Positions 8,859 through 14,188 of a DNA stretch of 64,000 nt are shown in pieces. Within the stretch, counting starts at the first letter, position 1. Each line of letters starts with the position of its first letter. The notes under the pieces were generated by a model. That model saw only the letters and a list, made by a program, of their open reading frames with translations. It was not told the origin of the DNA and made no database searches. The position numbers and the translations under genes are program-made. Location: positions 3,872,001 to 3,936,000 of the forward strand of contig OZ250169.1 in the NCBI GenBank assembly GCA_965237955.1, in the 5' to 3' direction. This stretch comes from Candidatus Marinacidobacterales bacterium. Lineage in GTDB: Bacteria; Acidobacteriota; Vicinamibacteria; Marinacidobacterales; SMYC01.

Positions 8859-9914
8859 CTACGGCCTCACTCTGACGTATTTCTGCAGCGTCCGGGGGCG
8901 GGGCTCCCCGCCGTACAGGTTGCCGTCGCGATCCACCGCAACGAACTCCGCCCCATTCCCCGTGGTCTTACGCGGATCCCCCCACGGATAGAGAACGAAG
9001 GCGTTCACCCAGCCGGTTCGGGCGTCCCCAATCCTGATCCCCATCTCCCAACCTGGATTCTGCACATCGTCCGACTCCGAGTCGGCCACATAGATCTGGT
9101 CGTTTCTATCGAAGAAGATCCCGCTCGGTCGCCCGAATTGCGTCCAACTGGACAGGAAGTTCCCGTCCTGGTCGAAGATCTGGATCCGGTTGTTCGACCG
9201 GTCGCCCACGAACACCCGCCCTCTGGAATCGATGGCGATGGCGTGCAGCGTCCGGAATTCGCCCGGCCCGTAGCCGGTCTGTCCCCAGGTCTTGATGAAC
9301 GTCCCGTCACTCGAGAACTTCACCACGCGGTTGTTTGTATCGTTGCCATGGCCATCCGCGACGAAAATGTCACCATTGTCAGCCACCACGACAGCGCTCG
9401 GGGCGTTGAAGCTGGACGGACCGTCTCCGGGAACTCCCGGGGTGCCGAGGGTCATCAACACCTCTCCGTCCGGGCTGAACTTGATGACCTGGTGTCCTCT
9501 TGTCCCCTCTGGCGTTCGCGCGGCGCTCACCGCGTCGGTCACCCACACGTTTCCGTCCTGGTCCACGTCGATCCCGTGGGGCCATATAAACATCCCGCTC
9601 CCGAAGCTCTCCACGACATTGCCTTCCAGGTCGAACTCGAGGATCGGGTCCAGATCCGAATCGAGACACTCGTTGCCGAACCGGGCCGGCCAGTCGGTCT
9701 GGTAACATCGCACCACCGCCCAGATATGCTCGCCCTCACGGTCGACCGTCACCCCGCCCACCGCTCCCATCTTCCTCCCGTCGGGAAGCTGGGCCCAGCC
9801 ATCAACAGCGCGATACGGATTCGGGAGGACCTGGGCGAAGGCCTCGACTCCAGTGCCGAGCCCTGTGACGAAGACCAAAGTTACCGCCAACCTCATTCGA
9901 CTTGCAGTCGACAT
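8859..9914 (-). CDS. NHL-repeat peptidyl-alpha-hydroxyglycine alpha-amidating lyase family protein
   Basis: WPHGIDVD, FNAPSAV, IFVADGHG..TNNRVVKF, VGDRSNNRIQIFD; signal peptide. Confidence 0.88.
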   Translation of the reverse strand: MSTASRMRLAVTLVFVTGLGTGVEAFAQVLPNPYRAVDGWAQLPDGRKMGAVGGVTVDREGEHIWAVVRCYQTDWPARFGNECLDSDLDPILEFDLEGNVVESFGSGMFIWPHGIDVDQDGNVWVTDAVSAARTPEGTRGHQVIKFSPDGEVLMTLGTPGVPGDGPSSFNAPSAVVVADNGDIFVADGHGNDTNNRVVKFSSDGTFIKTWGQTGYGPGEFRTLHAIAIDSRGRVFVGDRSNNRIQIFDQDGNFLSSWTQFGRPSGIFFDRNDQIYVADSESDDVQNPGWEMGIRIGDARTGWVNAFVLYPWGDPRKTTGNGAEFVAVDRDGNLYGGEPRPRTLQKYVRVRP

Positions 9915-10019
9915 AATCACACCTCGCCTCGAAAAGAATGACCAATCCGGGATTTCCATTGTGGCCGGCTCGAATCCCACCATTTAGTGTACGTGGAGAC
10001 CTGAGTCAAGCGCTTTCTC

Positions 10020-11423
10020 CTAAGAAACTACCGCCTGAACGACGTCGCCCGTTTGAGTGTCGATGAGAGCGAAACCGAGGTCAGCGGCGCGTTGGGTCAG
10101 GCGGCGCACGGCACGGGAGCGATCTTGAGCGTTGTAGGCGGCGGCCCCGGGGTCTTGATAGACGAGCCCATCCTTGAGAGTGCGGTAGACGAGAATGGCG
10201 AGCTTTCGAGCGGTGGCGGTGATGGCTTTGGATTTACCGACGCGATAGGCGAGACGTCGATAGTAGGCGCCGAGAGCGGTCTGTGTACGCCCGAGGCTGA
10301 GTGCGGCCATGCGGAGAATGCCAGCGGCGCGGTTTGCAGAGGGTTGTGTTTTCGAGCTGAGGAGTCGCCCGCCGGAGATTTTGTTATTGGGCGCGAGGGT
10401 AAGCCAGGAAGTGAAGTGCTTTTCAGTAGGCCATCGGTTCATATCGGTGCCGATCTCGGCGAGCAAGCGAAGCGCGAAATAGGGTCCGATGGCGTCGATC
10501 TGGGAGAGGTCGACCCCGGCGATCTGGTGGAGGAGAGGCCAGAGCTCGAACCGAGGTTCGTTCACTCGGGGCTTGCGCGATTTTCGAGGCGGTGGCAAGG
10601 AGGTGTTCGGGGTTGAGCGTTGAGCTAGAAGCTGCAGGTGCGATTCGATGGCCACGTCACAGGTTTGGATCTGGAGCTGAAAAGCATCAAAGAGTTCGAG
10701 GTTCTGCTTGAGAGCGAAGAGGTGCTCGGGGCGATAGTTGCCGGTGAGTGCAGCGGCGATCTCGGCCTCGGAGGACTGACAACGGTGGTCACGGTGCTTG
10801 GCGAGCCGATGGGGGTCGGTTTGTCCGGCAACGATGTCTCGTAGAATCCGCATGCCAGTGACACCCGTGATATCAGTGACCACAAGGTGGAGTTGAAGAT
10901 TCATTTGCACGAGAGCCTTCTGCATGCGCTGGATATGGGTTACCGCACTCTGAACGAGAGTCTCTCGGTGGCGGAGGTAGCCACGCAGGGCGGTGATGGC
11001 TGCTTCGGGTCGAAAGCTTCCGCGGAGCAACCCCACGCTGTGCAACTCCCGGAGCCATTCGCAATCGCTGACATCGCTCTTGCGCCCCGGGACGTTTTTG
11101 ACGAGGCGCGCGTTGACCAAGAGGACCTGGAAGCCACGGGCTTCGAGGATTTCATACAGGGCGATCCAGTAGACGCCGGTCGACTCCATCGCGACGCTCG
11201 TCACGCCGCAAGTCGCGAGCCAGTCGGCGAGCCGATGAAGATCGGCCGTGAAACTCCTGAAGGAACGGACCGGTTTAGGATCGCGCTCCGGTGGAACTGC
11301 GACGAAATGCTCGGCCGAGCCGCAATCGATCCCAGCGACATTCACGTTGATTTGCTTCAGGAGGGATGGAGAAGTCCGCTTCTTGGGTTGACGACGATTG
11401 TGCTTCATCAGATGCTCCTTCAT
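10020..11423 (-). CDS. IS110 family transposase (DEDD recombinase)
   Basis: VAGID, AMESTGVYW, RKSDVSD, IDAIG, ISGG catalytic serine motif, ATARKLA. Confidence 0.95.
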   Translation of the reverse strand: MKEHLMKHNRRQPKKRTSPSLLKQINVNVAGIDCGSAEHFVAVPPERDPKPVRSFRSFTADLHRLADWLATCGVTSVAMESTGVYWIALYEILEARGFQVLLVNARLVKNVPGRKSDVSDCEWLRELHSVGLLRGSFRPEAAITALRGYLRHRETLVQSAVTHIQRMQKALVQMNLQLHLVVTDITGVTGMRILRDIVAGQTDPHRLAKHRDHRCQSSEAEIAAALTGNYRPEHLFALKQNLELFDAFQLQIQTCDVAIESHLQLLAQRSTPNTSLPPPRKSRKPRVNEPRFELWPLLHQIAGVDLSQIDAIGPYFALRLLAEIGTDMNRWPTEKHFTSWLTLAPNNKISGGRLLSSKTQPSANRAAGILRMAALSLGRTQTALGAYYRRLAYRVGKSKAITATARKLAILVYRTLKDGLVYQDPGAAAYNAQDRSRAVRRLTQRAADLGFALIDTQTGDVVQAVVS

Positions 11424-11430
11424 ACTTCGT

Positions 11431-11588
11431 GAAGCATCCGGGAACAGGGATGGGCATTCGTTACATTCTCCTAAACGGGATCACGCTCACGCGTGTCACC
11501 ACTGACAGTGCCGAAACATCCCCGGGCCATGCTTAGTTACGGGCTGGATCGCACCAGTGTTGAGTCGGCCTCGGTTCCCGGATGCTCC
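11431..11588 (-). ncRNA. Putative IS110 bridge/seek RNA
   Basis: 13-bp closing stem (11433-45/11574-86); two TGGTG-hairpin-CCCGT-guide modules; guides match 11664-73 and 10015-23; TACAAT -10 at 11593-98. Confidence 0.75.
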
Positions 11589-12055
11589 CGCTATTGTATG
11601 AAACGGACGCTCCATGCAGCACTGGAGTTTCTACCCAGATAGATCGCGAGCCCTGCGCGTACGATGCTTAGTTGAAACTCTCCACGGCTCAGGGTTCGTT
11701 TATAGTAATGATGGTTTACGCGGGTCGTGGATGCGCGAGTAGAGTCGAGGAGGCGGGAGGAGAGTCACCGCGCCGGGGAGCAGCGCGTCCGCCGAAGATG
11801 GTTCCCCGAAGTGCCTCGGGCGTCGCACGAGCGTTTTTTTTGGAGCCATCCGTCCCCAACGTGAGGAAGGAAGATGACGATGTCAGGTCGTACGCTTTCT
11901 TCTTCCCCGGAGCTCGGCTCCCACACATACCTTGCGTATCGTCCTTTGAGCCACGGGGCTCGGGGGACGCTCGGTCCTCCGAGCCTGGAGGTTGCTGTAC
12001 GCCGGTCAGTCGAGATTTCGTATTAATCGTTCCCAGCTCTTCTCGAGGAGGAAGC

Positions 12056-14188
12056 ATGATGAAGCGATCCCGGATCGGTTGTTGCGTCCTGGCTCTAGCG
12101 GCCCTCTTAGGAGTCGCGTCCGCCGGCTCCGCGCAGATGACGGGCCTCGAGAACGGGGAGTGGCATTACCTGGGCGGCGACGCCGGGCACACCCGGTCCA
12201 ATCCGCAGCTGAAACAGATCAACGCGTCCAACTTCTCCGATCTACAGGTAGCCTGGACCTGGCGGGGGGACAACTTCGGGCCGAGCGTCGAGTACACGTT
12301 CCGGTCCACGCCGGTCTTCGTGGACGGTGTGTTGTACACGGTCGTCGGTCAGCGGCGGCAGGTGGCGGCGATCGCCGCCGCCACGGGCGAGACGCTCTGG
12401 GTATTCCGGGAGCCCGAGACGATGAGGTATCTGCGCTCGCCGAGGACGGACTTCGGAAAGGGCATCGCCTACGCGGAGGTGGACGGACGGGGCGTGATCT
12501 ACTTCACGTCGCCCGCCTTCTTCCTCTGGGCGCTGGACGCCAAGACCGGGCGGCCCCTGGAGGACTGGGGTACGCTCGTACCGTTGGAGGATTTCTCCCG
12601 GACCGGCGTCGTTGATCTGATACCGGACCTCGTGGCGGACTGGGAGCCCTGGCTGACCCGGACGACCGGGCCGTACGACCCGGACCACGGGATCCCGAGG
12701 CAGCTGGGCATGGTCACCAGCTCGTCGCCGCCCATCGTGGTGAACGGGGTGGTCGTGGTGCTTGTCGGCCACGAGCCCAGCTATGACCAGACCCGGATCG
12801 AGAACGTCCCCGGCGACATCATGGGCTACGACGGCAGAACCGGAGAGCACCTCTGGAAGTTCCACGTCATCCCGCGGCCCGGCGAGTTCGGCCACGACAC
12901 GTGGGAGAACGACGCCTGGCGGTGGTCGGGCGACATGTCGTCGTGGGCTCCCGCGTCCGCCGACCCGGAGTTGGGGCTCGTGTACATCGTGACGAACGCC
13001 TCGACCGTCCAGTCGTACGCGGGCCATCGCCCGGGCCACAACCTCTTCGGCGGCAGCGTCCTCGCGTTGGACGTCAGGACGGGCGAGCGGAGGTGGCACT
13101 TCCAGATCCACCACAGTGACCAGTGGAACTACGACATTCCCGCCGCGCCCATCCTGATGGATCTCACGGTGGACGGACAGCGAATCCCCGCGTTGATCCA
13201 GAACACGAAGCAGGGCCTCATCTTCGCGTTGAACCGGGAGACCGGTAAGCCGATCTGGCCTATCGAGGAGCGCCCGGTCATGCAGACCCAGGTCCCCGGC
13301 AATTATACGGCGCCCACGCAACCCTACCCGACCCGGCCGGAACCGCTGGACCCCATCGTATGGAACGGGATCACCGACGAGTTCGTGATGGACTACACGC
13401 CGGAGCTGAGGCGGCGCGCCATGGAGATCCTGAGCGAATTTCGGGTCGGGGGCCTCTACGTACCGCCGCTCCCCTATCCCCACAACAACGACTACCGCAA
13501 CGTTGTCGGCTGCAGGGGCGGGTTGAACATGTACCATCCGCCGGTTGCGGATCCGACGACGGGAATCATGTACGCGTCGCACAGGCGGGGCTGCAGCGCC
13601 CCCTCGTTCCTGGTGCCCACGAACGGGGAGGACGTGGAGCGGGGGTTGCCCGGACTGAGTGCGGTGAGCTGGAGGGGGCGGGAGCGGCATACGTCCACCA
13701 CAGGTACCACGGTCGCAGCGTGGGCGCCCGGCGGCCGCCGCGCGTTTCTGCCGCTTATCGAGGGCCTGCCGGTCTACAAGCCTCTGTACCAAGGGCTCGC
13801 CGCCTACGACATGAACACGGGCGAAAAGCTCTGGGACATTCCGGTCGGCGAGACTCCCGAGCGGATCAGGAACCACCCTCTTTTGTCGGGAGTGGATATT
13901 CCCAATACGGGAGGAACCGGCAACTCCATCCAGATGGTCGTGGGCGACCTCTTGTTGCAAACCATGGAGGACCTGCGGGGCGATGCCGAAGTGAGCGAGA
14001 ACGGCATGCCGCTCCTGCATGCCCGCGACAAGCGGACGGGTGAGATCCTGGCGAGCGTCGAGCTCCCGATACCCGGCCAGTACGGGATGATGACCTACAT
14101 GCACGAAGGAAAGCAGTACATCGTGGTGCAGGCGGGCAGCGCGAAACGCAACCAGCCGGGCTCGCTGGTGGCGCTGACGCTGCCGTAG
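12056..14188 (+). CDS. PQQ-dependent dehydrogenase (quinoprotein glucose dehydrogenase-like)
   Basis: GAGGAG RBS; signal peptide; W..LGGD, QINASN...L.VAW, HHSDQWNYD, MTYMHEGKQYIV. Confidence 0.88.
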   Translation: MMKRSRIGCCVLALAALLGVASAGSAQMTGLENGEWHYLGGDAGHTRSNPQLKQINASNFSDLQVAWTWRGDNFGPSVEYTFRSTPVFVDGVLYTVVGQRRQVAAIAAATGETLWVFREPETMRYLRSPRTDFGKGIAYAEVDGRGVIYFTSPAFFLWALDAKTGRPLEDWGTLVPLEDFSRTGVVDLIPDLVADWEPWLTRTTGPYDPDHGIPRQLGMVTSSSPPIVVNGVVVVLVGHEPSYDQTRIENVPGDIMGYDGRTGEHLWKFHVIPRPGEFGHDTWENDAWRWSGDMSSWAPASADPELGLVYIVTNASTVQSYAGHRPGHNLFGGSVLALDVRTGERRWHFQIHHSDQWNYDIPAAPILMDLTVDGQRIPALIQNTKQGLIFALNRETGKPIWPIEERPVMQTQVPGNYTAPTQPYPTRPEPLDPIVWNGITDEFVMDYTPELRRRAMEILSEFRVGGLYVPPLPYPHNNDYRNVVGCRGGLNMYHPPVADPTTGIMYASHRRGCSAPSFLVPTNGEDVERGLPGLSAVSWRGRERHTSTTGTTVAAWAPGGRRAFLPLIEGLPVYKPLYQGLAAYDMNTGEKLWDIPVGETPERIRNHPLLSGVDIPNTGGTGNSIQMVVGDLLLQTMEDLRGDAEVSENGMPLLHARDKRTGEILASVELPIPGQYGMMTYMHEGKQYIVVQAGSAKRNQPGSLVALTLP

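What the first reader, a model, noticed from the sequence alone, without database searches (positions are those of the whole stretch)
11431..11588. Bridge-RNA-like guide with readable target and donor loops and handshake-type bases
Seen: the minus-strand RNA is closed by a 13-bp stem and has two TGGTG-hairpin-CCCGT modules followed by AACTAAG-CA and TTAGGAG-AA. These match the junctions ATGCTTAGTT (11664-73, 10 nt) and TTCTCCTAA (10015-23, 9 nt) around a CT core. The first 7 nt of each read target or donor; the next 2 match the partner DNA, as IS621 handshake guides do. Unlike IS621, the CT strand is antisense to the RNA, one element end is nearly absent (the stop codon lies in the donor half-site), and the recombinase is larger (467 aa). 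The second guide strand of each loop could not be matched by eye. Inference: a programmable recombinase with variant RNA architecture.
Basis: partly seen in the sequence, partly recalled or inferred. Interest (0 to 1): 0.78.

Follow-up and report, generated by a model that had tools for sequence, protein, structure and literature searches.

The report
IS110 jumping gene with mirrored bridge RNA
This is a recently active jumping gene of the known IS110 kind. Its own folded RNA spells out both its landing site and its own ends, and it likely guides insertion as the E. coli element IS621 does, but with the RNA and enzyme genes facing the opposite way.

Summary
Window 10017-11668 (minus strand) is a 1,650-bp IS110-family element.

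- **Copies:** it has 10 near-identical copies and 3 empty sites in its own genome.
- **RNA:** the left end encodes a 156-nt two-loop RNA (11432-11587).
- **Family:** a covariance model finds this RNA upstream of the recombinase gene in 78 of 79 sources searched, and the guides change together with the junctions.
- **Second target guide:** I found one on the 5' side of the first loop, pairing with the right flank. It holds only statistically across the family and does not fit this element's own sites. No second donor guide was found.
- **Inverted repeat:** a 7-11-bp subterminal inverted repeat is conserved.

The loops are built like those of IS621. The strand polarity is the reverse: AG core on the sense strand, the guide order reported for IS1111 seekRNAs.

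Verdict: a real bridge-RNA system and a variant of a known kind, not a new mechanism. This scan has reported IS110 bridge RNAs before on other DNA.

The parts
10017..11668 (-). Whole insertion sequence with the AG core (CT on + strand) counted at both ends; 1,648 bp between the cores
   Evidence: Ten copies and their diverging flanks; empty sites
11667..11673 (-). Left junction: left-target half-site AACTA (11669-11673) plus core AG (11667-11668); C at 11674 is also invariant
   Evidence: CAACTAAG precedes the element in 10 of 10 copies; identical to guide 1 positions 1-7
11626..11632 (-). Left arm of the subterminal inverted repeat (AGAAACT), 35 nt inside the left end
   Evidence: Inverted repeat of 7 bp or more in 36 of 40 loci against 2 and 0 of 40 in controls; the sequence covaries
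11593..11598 (-). Predicted -10 box TACAAT, 6 nt upstream of the closing stem (prediction only)
   Evidence: 70 of 82 TANNNT boxes lie 21-35 nt upstream of helix P2 in 71 distinct homologues. The two-hexamer sigma-70 scan found none
11432..11587 (-). Bridge RNA gene, closing stem to closing stem; RNA ends not mapped
   Evidence: Covariance model R1: 132.7 bits, E 2.8e-34, the only hit in the window; helix counts
11559..11565 (-). 5' side of the target loop: ACUCAA plus C, the family's right-target guide position
   Evidence: In the family these columns pair with the sense strand at right-flank +6 to +1 and core G. In this element it matches its own flank at only 1 of 6
11530..11538 (-). Guide 1 (3' side of the target loop): AACUA-AG-CA = left flank 5 nt, core, first 2 nt of the element (handshake)
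11466..11474 (-). Guide 2 (3' side of the donor loop): UUAGG-AG-AA = last 5 nt of the element, core, 2 nt that equal the right flank in this copy
   Evidence: the right flank starts with AA in 6 of the 10 full copies
10020..11423 (-). Recombinase ORF (467 aa from the first ATG). A second in-frame ATG at 11408 follows AAGGAG and would give 462 aa. Stop TAG at 10020-10022
   Evidence: Pfam PF01548 and PF02371; NCBIfam NF033542, 251.5 bits; profile match to IS621 and ISCro4 transposases
10023..10029 (-). Right arm of the subterminal inverted repeat (AGTTTCT), positions -11 to -5 from the core
10017..10023 (-). Right junction: donor half-site TTAGG (10019-10023) plus core AG (10017-10018)
   Evidence: Shared by all 10 copies, flanks differ after it

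Best explanation
Window 10017-11668 is an IS110-family insertion sequence whose left end carries a conserved two-loop RNA gene. That RNA likely acts as a bridge RNA, directing the encoded DEDD/serine recombinase to join a predicted circular form of the element to AACTA-AG sites.

Shown:
- The element ends, the AG core shared by target and element, and the absence of terminal repeats and of a target duplication.
- The RNA family and its helices.
[quoted passage not shown] They would therefore pair with the antisense strand, which carries 5'-CT-3'.
- Family-wide co-variation of these guides with the junctions.
- A weaker family-level signal that the 5' side of the target loop pairs with the sense strand of the right flank.

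Inferred by homology with IS621:
- The RNA is made from a promoter inside the left end, and the recombinase is presumed to bind it, as IS621's does.
- The CT-carrying strand would be cut and exchanged first. The two 3'-terminal guide bases (handshake) would pair only after exchange and favour insertion.

On this reading the RNA-DNA geometry is that of IS621, and the RNA and recombinase genes are inverted relative to the recombination sites. In this genome only the left half-site (C-AACTA-AG) is matched at natural insertions, so insertion here would be a half-site event.
For: - Recombinase family: Pfam and NCBIfam hits. A profile of 25 family proteins hits the IS621 transposase (E 1.1e-14) and ISCro4 (E 2.8e-11), with the GID, E-x-TG, D-xx-D and SG motifs aligned.
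- Ends: 10 copies and 3 empty sites. An independent paralogue (52% aa, 6 full copies) has different guides, GGGTCAGCT and CGGTCAGAA. Each matches its junction (aGGTC-AG-CT and CGGTC-AG-ga in the reference copy) with one mismatch.
- RNA family: model R1 hits 78 of 79 sources; in the 77 homologue loci the hit lies upstream of the recombinase match on its strand. P2, stem-loop 1 and stem-loop 2 are 98.9, 99.3 and 96.5% paired, with compensatory changes in 4 of 5, 3 of 4 and 8 of 10 pairs. The whole structure beats 500 of 500 shuffles and all slid controls.
- Guide and junction co-variation.
- Second target guide: 130 of 228 cells paired against 95.2 expected. With permutation inside clades, AG clade 83 of 156 against 60.8 +/- 5.0 (1 of 5000 permutations as high) and AA clade 47 of 72 against 41.1 +/- 2.7 (124 of 5000).
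- Layout equals the IS621 3' side (GU linker, 9 nt ending AG + 2) as described in PMC11208158.
- RNA-library contigs from 3 of 4 metatranscriptome runs laid (2 studies) cover 11448-11688, at higher word depth than the ORF contigs in the same runs: 21.8 against 5.1 or less, 5.9 against 2.4, 4.3 against 2.9 or less.
- Nine intact ORFs and 10 RNA genes that are identical apart from one substitution in one copy point to recent activity.
Against: - No RNA 5' or 3' end, strand or protein binding is shown. The RNA evidence is contigs only; two of them run on into the upstream flank, and X2 has no contig over the RNA region.
- The fold energy is not significant. Rfam has no match. The sigma-70 scan finds no promoter.
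- The closing stem P1 and helix P3 are only 53% and 57% paired on the model-based alignment, and P3b 23.5%. P1 is supported only per sequence: run of pairs 8.8 against 6.5 shuffled; 8 or more in 56 of 73 against 16 of 73.
- The 5' guide does not fit this element's own sites. It scores 1 of 6 here, and a mean of 1.94 of 6 over 17 right junctions against 1.70 for random genomic positions. No genomic site lies within 1 mismatch of the ideal 13-mer.
- No second donor guide was found in any register.
- 96 of 107 AACTAAG sites in the genome are empty, so seven bases do not explain the choice of site.
- Junctions in 36 of 38 family loci were found through the guides, which is circular.
- Which strand is cut first is inference only.
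Confidence: 0.82

Rival explanations
1. Same bridge-RNA system, but the geometry is truly mirrored and the cargo is not inverted. [quoted passage not shown]
For: - The order 'top-strand-complementary 5', bottom-strand-complementary 3'' is the one reported for the IS1111-type elements ISEc11, ISPa11 and ISKpn4 (PMC11187229, section 9).
- The family has IS1111-like subterminal inverted repeats.
- IS621 accepts non-CT cores at lower efficiency (PMC11208160, passage).
Against: - The 3' side reproduces the IS621 RTG layout base for base (GU linker, AG at positions 6-7 of nine, 2 handshake bases). This is most simply read as the same RNA-DNA geometry on a CT strand.
- The 5' guide covers only one core base, and a conserved A stands where the second would pair.
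Confidence: 0.13
2. The region is not a trans-acting guide. It is a structured 5' leader that regulates recombinase expression, or a set of DNA-level internal copies of the ends bound by the protein.
For: - There is no terminator between the RNA and the ORF.
- The fold energy is not exceptional.
- No RNA ends are mapped.
- The inverted repeat shows that DNA-level end motifs do exist.
Against: - The guides change with the flanking host DNA, not only with the element ends. A leader or a protein site has no reason to track host DNA.
- The helices keep pairing through compensatory changes.
- The protein family is the RNA-guided IS110 family.
Confidence: 0.04

Closest known systems
IS621 of E. coli and its bridge RNA (PMC11208160, PMC11208158; PDB 8wt6)
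   Same: - DEDD RuvC-like plus Tnp domain recombinase with aligned D/E/D/D and SG motifs.
- RNA encoded in the left end upstream of the recombinase gene.
- Two loops, each with an internal stem-loop.
- 3' side made of a GU linker plus 9 nt carrying AG and two handshake bases.
- Dinucleotide core shared by target and donor, no target duplication.
   Different: - Very distant protein: no pairwise match, and about 140 aa longer between the two domains.
- The CT core lies on the antisense strand, so the guide order relative to the element is reversed.
- The 3'-side guide is the long, strict one (7 nt).
- The 5' guide covers one core base only.
- 7-11-bp asymmetric subterminal inverted repeat instead of 2-3 bp.
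- Right non-coding end of 0 nt.
- A -10-like box inside the left end, not a junction promoter (prediction).
IS1111-type elements with seekRNA (ISEc11, ISPa11, ISKpn4, ISPst6; PMC11187229)
   Same: - Guide order: the segment complementary to the top (sense) strand lies 5' of the one complementary to the bottom strand.
- Subterminal inverted repeats of 7 bp or more.
   Different: - In those elements the non-coding RNA region lies downstream of the recombinase gene, and the recombinases are 330-350 aa. Here it is upstream and the protein is 462-467 aa.
- The repeat arms here sit 4-5 nt from the core on the right but 31-42 nt on the left.
ISEc21 (IS110 type with upstream seekRNA; PMC11187229, section 12)
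   Same: - Upstream non-coding region.
- Some relatives of the present element also target a conserved spot in IS3-family transposase genes.
   Different: ISEc21 has the IS621 guide order (bottom-strand match 5', top-strand match 3'), and no long inverted repeat is reported for it.
Catalogues of divergent bridge RNAs (Durrant 2024, Fig. 6 and Extended Data Fig. 10; preprint 10.64898/2026.10.21.760802, section 8: 86 models, 32,190 bridge RNAs)
   Same: They report many IS110-adjacent RNAs whose structures deviate from IS621 yet co-vary with target and donor. This family is probably among them.
   Different: The text I could read gives no account of this family or of reversed polarity with an upstream RNA. 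Figures are not held and the preprint's supplements are closed, so I cannot tell whether it is already described there.

Membership tests
IS110 family RNA-guided transposase (NCBIfam NF033542; Pfam PF01548 + PF02371) | N-terminal DEDD RuvC-like domain and C-terminal Transposase_20 domain | tested here: met
   PF01548 E 5.5e-22 (residues 30-174) and PF02371 E 1.2e-11 (residues 306-389); NF033542 251.5 bits against a cut-off of 140
IS110 family RNA-guided transposase (NCBIfam NF033542; Pfam PF01548 + PF02371) | Catalytic D, E, D, D and the serine of the SG motif | tested here: met
   The family profile aligned to IS621 chain 8wt6_A puts GID, ME-STG, SDvsD and iSGG opposite GID, IEATG, TDTVD and ESGS. 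The residue roles come from PMC11208158
IS110 family RNA-guided transposase (NCBIfam NF033542; Pfam PF01548 + PF02371) | No terminal inverted repeats, no target duplication, site-specific insertion around a short shared core | tested here: met
   Junctions of 10 copies and 3 empty sites; only AG is shared by target and element ends
IS621-type bridge RNA | Non-coding RNA gene in the non-coding end next to the recombinase gene, with two internal loops each holding a stem-loop | tested here: met
   Model R1 hits upstream of the gene in 78 of 79 sources; helices P2, SL1 and SL2 are 96.5-99.3% paired with compensatory changes
IS621-type bridge RNA | Each loop carries two guides that pair with opposite strands and overlap at the core | tested here: inconclusive
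   - Target loop: the 3' guide is strong. The 5' guide is supported only statistically across the family and is not matched in this element's own sites.
- Donor loop: only the 3' guide was found
IS621-type bridge RNA | [quoted passage not shown] | tested here: not met
   The 3'-side guides are identical to the sense strand, and the core reads AG on it. The IS621 rule is taken from PMC11208160 passages
IS621-type bridge RNA | Handshake dinucleotides at the 3' end of the 3'-side guides that match the partner DNA | tested here: met
   - Guide 1 positions 8-9 equal the element's first two bases in 38 of 38 and 23 of 38 loci, against 32.5 and 10.6 expected.
- Guide 2 is weak: 21 of 38, then 8 of 38 against 8.8
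IS621-type bridge RNA | RNA is expressed, bound by the recombinase and required for recombination | not testable with these tools
   Only contigs from RNA libraries cover the region; they show no ends, strand or binding
IS1111-type element with seekRNA | Subterminal inverted repeats of 7-17 bp | tested here: met
   7 bp here, 7-11 bp in 36 of 40 loci, co-varying. The arms are placed asymmetrically
IS1111-type element with seekRNA | Top-strand-complementary segment 5' of the bottom-strand-complementary segment | tested here: met
   against PMC11187229 section 9
IS1111-type element with seekRNA | Long non-coding region downstream of the recombinase gene; recombinase of 330-350 aa | tested here: not met
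   The RNA gene is upstream and the right non-coding end is absent; the ORF is 467 aa

The most novel reading that the evidence does not exclude
A large, phylum-spanning clade of IS110 elements keeps the IS621 RNA-DNA geometry but carries its RNA and recombinase genes inverted relative to the recombination sites.

- It drives the RNA from a promoter inside the element.
- It needs only one 7-8-nt half-site to insert in nature.
- It uses an asymmetric subterminal inverted repeat, 40 nt apart across the circle junction, to present the donor site, possibly as a hairpin in a single-stranded circle.

This would be a distinct, naturally half-site-guided class of bridge recombinase.
Probability: 0.25. 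Interest if true: 0.65.

Novelty: new variant of a known kind. Interest (0 to 1): 0.45.

Why it matters
Bridge recombinases are being developed as programmable genome-rearrangement tools from a handful of IS621-like orthologues. This family is a well-defined, widespread relative.

- **Spread:** 613 confirmed relatives in the part of the genome collection that was scanned. It occurs in Acidobacteriota, Alphaproteobacteria, Cyanobacteria and on Enterobacteriaceae plasmids.
- **Mixed features:** it combines features used to separate the IS110 and IS1111 groups (upstream RNA, long subterminal repeats, reversed guide order). It therefore bears on how the two groups are related.
- **Half-site insertion:** its natural insertions match only one half-site. 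This bears on the half-match off-target question raised for IS621.

It does not change the known mechanism.

Tried and rejected
- **Rfam.** The E-value scan of 9500-12200 gave six matches, all far below gathering score and none in 11431-11588.
- **Promoter scan.** The two-hexamer sigma-70 scan found none.
- **Substring tests for a second guide.** Longest-common-substring tests showed nothing, and the single-cell matrix showed no diagonal for it. Only the summed diagonal test found the target-loop 5' guide.
- **Second donor guide.** I tested the 5' side of the donor loop, the stretch between the loops and the 9-10 nt after guide 2 in all registers. The best scores (z 4.0-5.1) were in registers that do not hold up locus by locus, and I treat them as clade composition effects.
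- **Two matches seen by eye.**
  - GCCCAU (11450-11455) is complementary to ATGGGC in the common right flank.
  - GACUCAA resembles TTGACTC further out.
  - A 6-mer match is expected by chance in this search space, so both are rejected.
- **Left inverted-repeat arm as a -35 box.** Its spacing to the -10-like box varies from about 10 to 28 nt, so this is rejected.
- **PDB search.** phmmer of the protein against PDB sequences found nothing; only the family profile reached IS621.
- **Actinobacterial IS110 relatives** (L120, L121; 32-34% aa).
  - L120 shows a 9-nt same-sense match of its RNA region to its right end.
  - The left junctions could not be fixed.
  - How far the polarity extends is therefore open.
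- **Earlier findings.** Look-ups by place and by sequence returned nothing.
- **X2.** This run had no contig over the RNA region. That is not evidence of absence.

Full report
**What is there.** The minus strand of window 10020-11423 holds a 467-aa ORF.
- It carries the two Pfam domains of IS110 transposases: PF01548 at E 5.5e-22 and PF02371 at E 1.2e-11.
- It scores 251.5 bits against the NCBIfam model 'IS110 family RNA-guided transposase', cut-off 140.
- A second in-frame ATG at 11408 follows an AAGGAG box, so the protein may be 462 aa.
- phmmer finds no solved structure.
- A profile of 25 family proteins finds the IS621 transposase (E 1.1e-14) and ISCro4 (E 2.8e-11) in two stretches, with the GID, E-x-TG, D-xx-D and SG motifs aligned.
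- About 140 residues between the two domains have no counterpart in IS621.
- Recombinases of 395-455 aa with a large variable region are described for the IS110-proper subgroup (PMC11187229, section 6).

**Ends of the element.** The window's genome is one 8.13-Mb contig.
- It holds 10 full-length copies at 98.6-100% identity, plus nine fragments. Nine copies keep the whole ORF.
- All 10 RNA genes are identical except one substitution in one copy.
- Read in the recombinase sense, every copy starts ...(C)AACTA-AG-CATCGTACG and ends ...GTTTCTTAGG-AG. After that the flanks differ: AAAGCG, GACTCG, AATGGG, GTTCTT, TTTGGC and others.
- Three empty sites read TTCAACTAAG followed directly by AATGGG or AAAGGA.
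- The element is therefore 1,648 bp between two AG dinucleotides (CT on the window's + strand). AG is the only sequence shared by target and element ends.
- There is no target duplication and there are no terminal inverted repeats.
- The stop codon TAG lies inside the last five bases, so there is no right non-coding end.

**The RNA.** The sequence 11432-11587 (minus strand) has these parts:

| Part | Content |
|---|---|
| Closing stem | 14 pairs |
| Helix P2 | GGCC with GGCC |
| First loop | 5' side G-ACUCAA-CAC-U, a stem-loop closed by GG(U)G/CCC, a GU linker, then AACUAAGCA |
| Helix P3 | GGGGAUG with CAUCCCU |
| Second loop | a stem-loop closed the same way, a GU linker, UUAGGAGAA, and about nine further bases |

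- The fold energy alone is not remarkable (z -1.59).
- Rfam has no matching family.

**Related elements.** A scan of one genome per species found 613 relatives in the seventh of the collection that was read. I kept 78 loci at 47-81% amino-acid identity, from Acidobacteriota, Alphaproteobacteria, Cyanobacteria, Chloroflexota and others.
- A covariance model built from 33 upstream regions hits 78 of the 79 sources searched.
- In the 77 homologue loci the hit lies upstream of the recombinase match on its strand. One locus has a second hit further downstream.
- The one source without a hit has no upstream sequence. I did not search locus L044, which also has none. Three hits are weak or truncated.
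- The model hits the window once, at 11432-11595 (132.7 bits).
- On that alignment P2, stem-loop 1 and stem-loop 2 are 98.9, 99.3 and 96.5% paired, with compensatory changes in 4 of 5, 3 of 4 and 8 of 10 pairs.
- The whole structure exceeds 500 of 500 shuffles and all slid controls.
- The closing stem, P3 and a four-pair extension score only 53, 57 and 23.5% there, because the model did not include them.
- Per sequence, the closing stem gives a run of 8.8 pairs against 6.5 for shuffled arms; a run of 8 or more occurs in 56 of 73 against 16 of 73.

**Guides.** Guide 1 (AACUA-AG-CA) is identical to the sense strand at the left junction: five flank bases, the core, then the first two bases of the element. 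Guide 2 (UUAGG-AG-AA) is identical to the last five element bases, the core, then two bases that equal the right flank in this copy and in 6 of the 10 full copies.
- A paralogous element in the same genome (52% identity, six full copies) has different guides, GGGUCAGCU and CGGUCAGAA. Each matches its own junction (aGGTC-AG-CT and CGGTC-AG-ga in the reference copy) with one mismatch.
- Across homologues, a same-sense match of 9 nt or more between the RNA region and the upstream end occurs in 37 of 67 loci, against 11 and 12 of 67 in controls. It is nearly always the nine bases after CCCGU.
- The second guide matches at or just after the stop codon.
- In 38 loci with both junctions, the guide columns match flank -5 to -1 in 36-38 of 38 and element -5 to -1 in 37-38 of 38.
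- Guide 1 positions 8-9 equal the first two element bases in 38 and 23 of 38 loci, against 32.5 and 10.6 expected.
- Guide 2 position 8 equals the first flank base in 21 of 38 loci (partly circular). Position 9 shows no signal: 8 of 38 against 8.8.
- For 36 of these 38 loci the junctions were located through the guides, so the counts are not independent of the guides. The two multi-copy elements are independent.

**A second target guide.** Single-cell tests showed none. Summing along diagonals did.
- The six variable bases on the 5' side of the first loop pair with the sense strand at right-flank positions +6 to +1. The following conserved C (U in the clade with an AA core) pairs with the second core base.
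- This gives 130 of 228 cells paired against 95.2 expected.
- Permuting inside clades gives 83 of 156 against 60.8 +/- 5.0 for the AG clade (1 of 5000 permutations as high), and 47 of 72 against 41.1 +/- 2.7 for the AA clade (124 of 5000).
- Single loci show compensating pairs, such as AUCGCU with GGCGAC and AUGGCU with GGCCAC.
- For the window's own element the guide does not fit. It scores 1 of 6 here and a mean of 1.94 of 6 over 17 right junctions, against 1.70 at random positions. No site in the genome lies within one mismatch of the ideal 13-mer.
- Natural insertions here therefore match only C-AACTA-AG. Yet 96 of 107 AACTAAG sites are empty.
- No second donor guide was found in any register.

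**Other conserved features.**
- *Inverted repeat.* A 7-11-bp inverted repeat joins positions -13 to -4 before the right core (AGTTTCT here, 10023-10029) with positions +31 to +42 inside the left end (AGAAACT, 11626-11632). It is 7 bp or longer in 36 of 40 loci, against 2 and 0 of 40 in controls, and its sequence co-varies. The two loci with the shortest repeats are ones where my right junction was probably misplaced. Its function is unknown. End recognition, or presenting the donor site as a hairpin in a single-stranded circle, are guesses.
- *Promoter.* A TANNNT box (TACAAT, 11593-11598) stands just upstream of the closing stem. 70 of the 82 such boxes found lie 21-35 nt upstream of P2 in 71 distinct homologues, against 2 in a control window. 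This suggests a promoter inside the left end, but the two-hexamer scan finds none.
- *RNA libraries.* Contigs from three of the four metatranscriptome runs laid (two studies) cover 11448-11688, at higher word depth than the ORF contigs of the same runs. Two contigs run on into a flank, and contigs show neither strand nor ends.

**Comparison with what is known.**
[quoted passage not shown] The top strand is the sense strand with a CT core (PMC11208160, passages).
- *IS621 3' side.* It is a stem-loop, linker G72-U73, a nine-base region whose G77-G80 pair with the core and right target, and handshake bases 81-82 (PMC11208158, passages).
- *This RNA.* Its 3' sides have that same layout, but they are identical to the sense strand. 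The strand they pair with, which carries CT, is antisense to the RNA and recombinase genes.
- *My reading.* The simplest reading is the same RNA-DNA geometry with inverted cargo. A truly mirrored geometry is the rival, and only mapping of the first-cut strand can decide.
- *IS1111-type seekRNAs.* Relative to the element, the guide order is the one reported for these RNAs and is opposite to ISEc21 (PMC11187229, sections 9 and 12). Long subterminal repeats are also an IS1111 hallmark. But the RNA gene here is upstream and the protein is long, which are IS110-type features. That paper notes exceptions of this sort in ISfinder without analysing them (section 6).
- *Catalogues.* A 2026 preprint reports 86 models covering 32,190 bridge RNAs, many unlike IS621 (section 8). 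This family is probably included. I could not see its figures or supplements.
- *Literature searches.* Two full-text searches turned up no paper whose listing describes this arrangement. That is not proof that none exists.

**Verdict.** It is a recently active IS110-family element with a bridge RNA, best called a variant of a known kind: IS621-like loops, reversed polarity, long asymmetric inverted repeat, no right non-coding end, and half-site matches at natural insertions. The mechanism is inferred from IS621. RNA expression, protein binding and strand order are untested. The scan has already reported IS110 and IS1111 bridge RNAs in other genomes.

Noticed in passing
own genome G000:C1:4255252-4256911 and five more full copies (L034 holds one): A second IS of the same RNA family (52% aa identity) with its own guides GGGUCAGCU and CGGUCAGAA. 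Its preferred left half-site (nGGTC-AG, preceded by TAGTTTC) is almost its own right end, and one copy sits directly after the right end of another (C1:5053055-5054049 followed by 5054036-).
   Followed up: partly
L119:940-960 (Citrobacter freundii plasmid NZ_CP054279.1) and loci L064, L093, L110 and others: The clade with an AA core and guide UAAAA-AA-CG inserts at ...GACAT(A/T)TTAAAAAA. In L119 this lies inside an IS3-family orfA (HTH_Tnp_1, E 2.6e-19) at its A-rich stretch (DILK|K), which I recall as the programmed-frameshift site of IS3 elements. The model scores 72.4 bits there.
   Followed up: partly
window 11674-11700 and 9976-10016; own genome C1:313563, 3680237, 5462481: Five of the ten copies and three empty sites share a roughly 40-bp repeated context, GAGCCGTGGA...TTTCAACTAAG|AATGGGCTTGACTC. 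In the window the right flank continues TTGACT-17 nt-TAAAT, just upstream of an NHL-repeat beta-propeller gene (8859-9983, minus). The element therefore sits immediately upstream of a promoter-like site.
   Followed up: partly
own genome, e.g. C1:5883493-5883978 (428-aa frames) and C1:3010817-3011248 (361-aa frames): At least two further multi-copy IS110-family groups distantly related to this recombinase (27-34% identity over parts): about 8 and about 16 places. Their RNAs were not examined.
   Followed up: no
own genome C1:2893405-2895096 and C1:631803-633464: One copy has an extra GAG at the right junction (TTAGGAG-GAG-aatggg) and one has an extra C before the left half-site (tttCCAACTAAG). 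These are small junction variants of unknown origin.
   Followed up: no
L120:1340-1410 and 2750-2765 (Streptomyces plasmid); L121:1310-1330 (Rhodococcus plasmid): IS110 relatives at 32-34% identity show the same UUGGCG...CCC(C)GU-N9 module. L120 has a 9-nt same-sense match (GTATCAGGA) between its upstream region and a site 36 nt past its stop codon. Sense-strand-identical 3' guides may therefore extend to the actinobacterial IS110-proper group. The left junctions could not be fixed.
   Followed up: partly
L043 and L065, donor region +2 to +11 against the 3' strand of stem-loop 2: By eye, the first bases of the left end (GGATCACGCG in L043) are complementary to the 3' strand of the second stem-loop (CGCGUGAUCC). 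In this window's element the match is interrupted (GCGU..GAU). This was not tested statistically. It could be a split donor guide or chance in GC-rich palindromic sequence (read).
   Followed up: no
L044 (99% identical copy in another assembly) and runs X1-X7: A MAG titled Candidatus Marinacidobacterales carries a 99%-identical recombinase fragment at a contig end. Of the RNA-library runs that hold parts of the element, X3-X6 are labelled sponge metagenome (X1, X2 and X7 carry a coded organism label).
   Followed up: no
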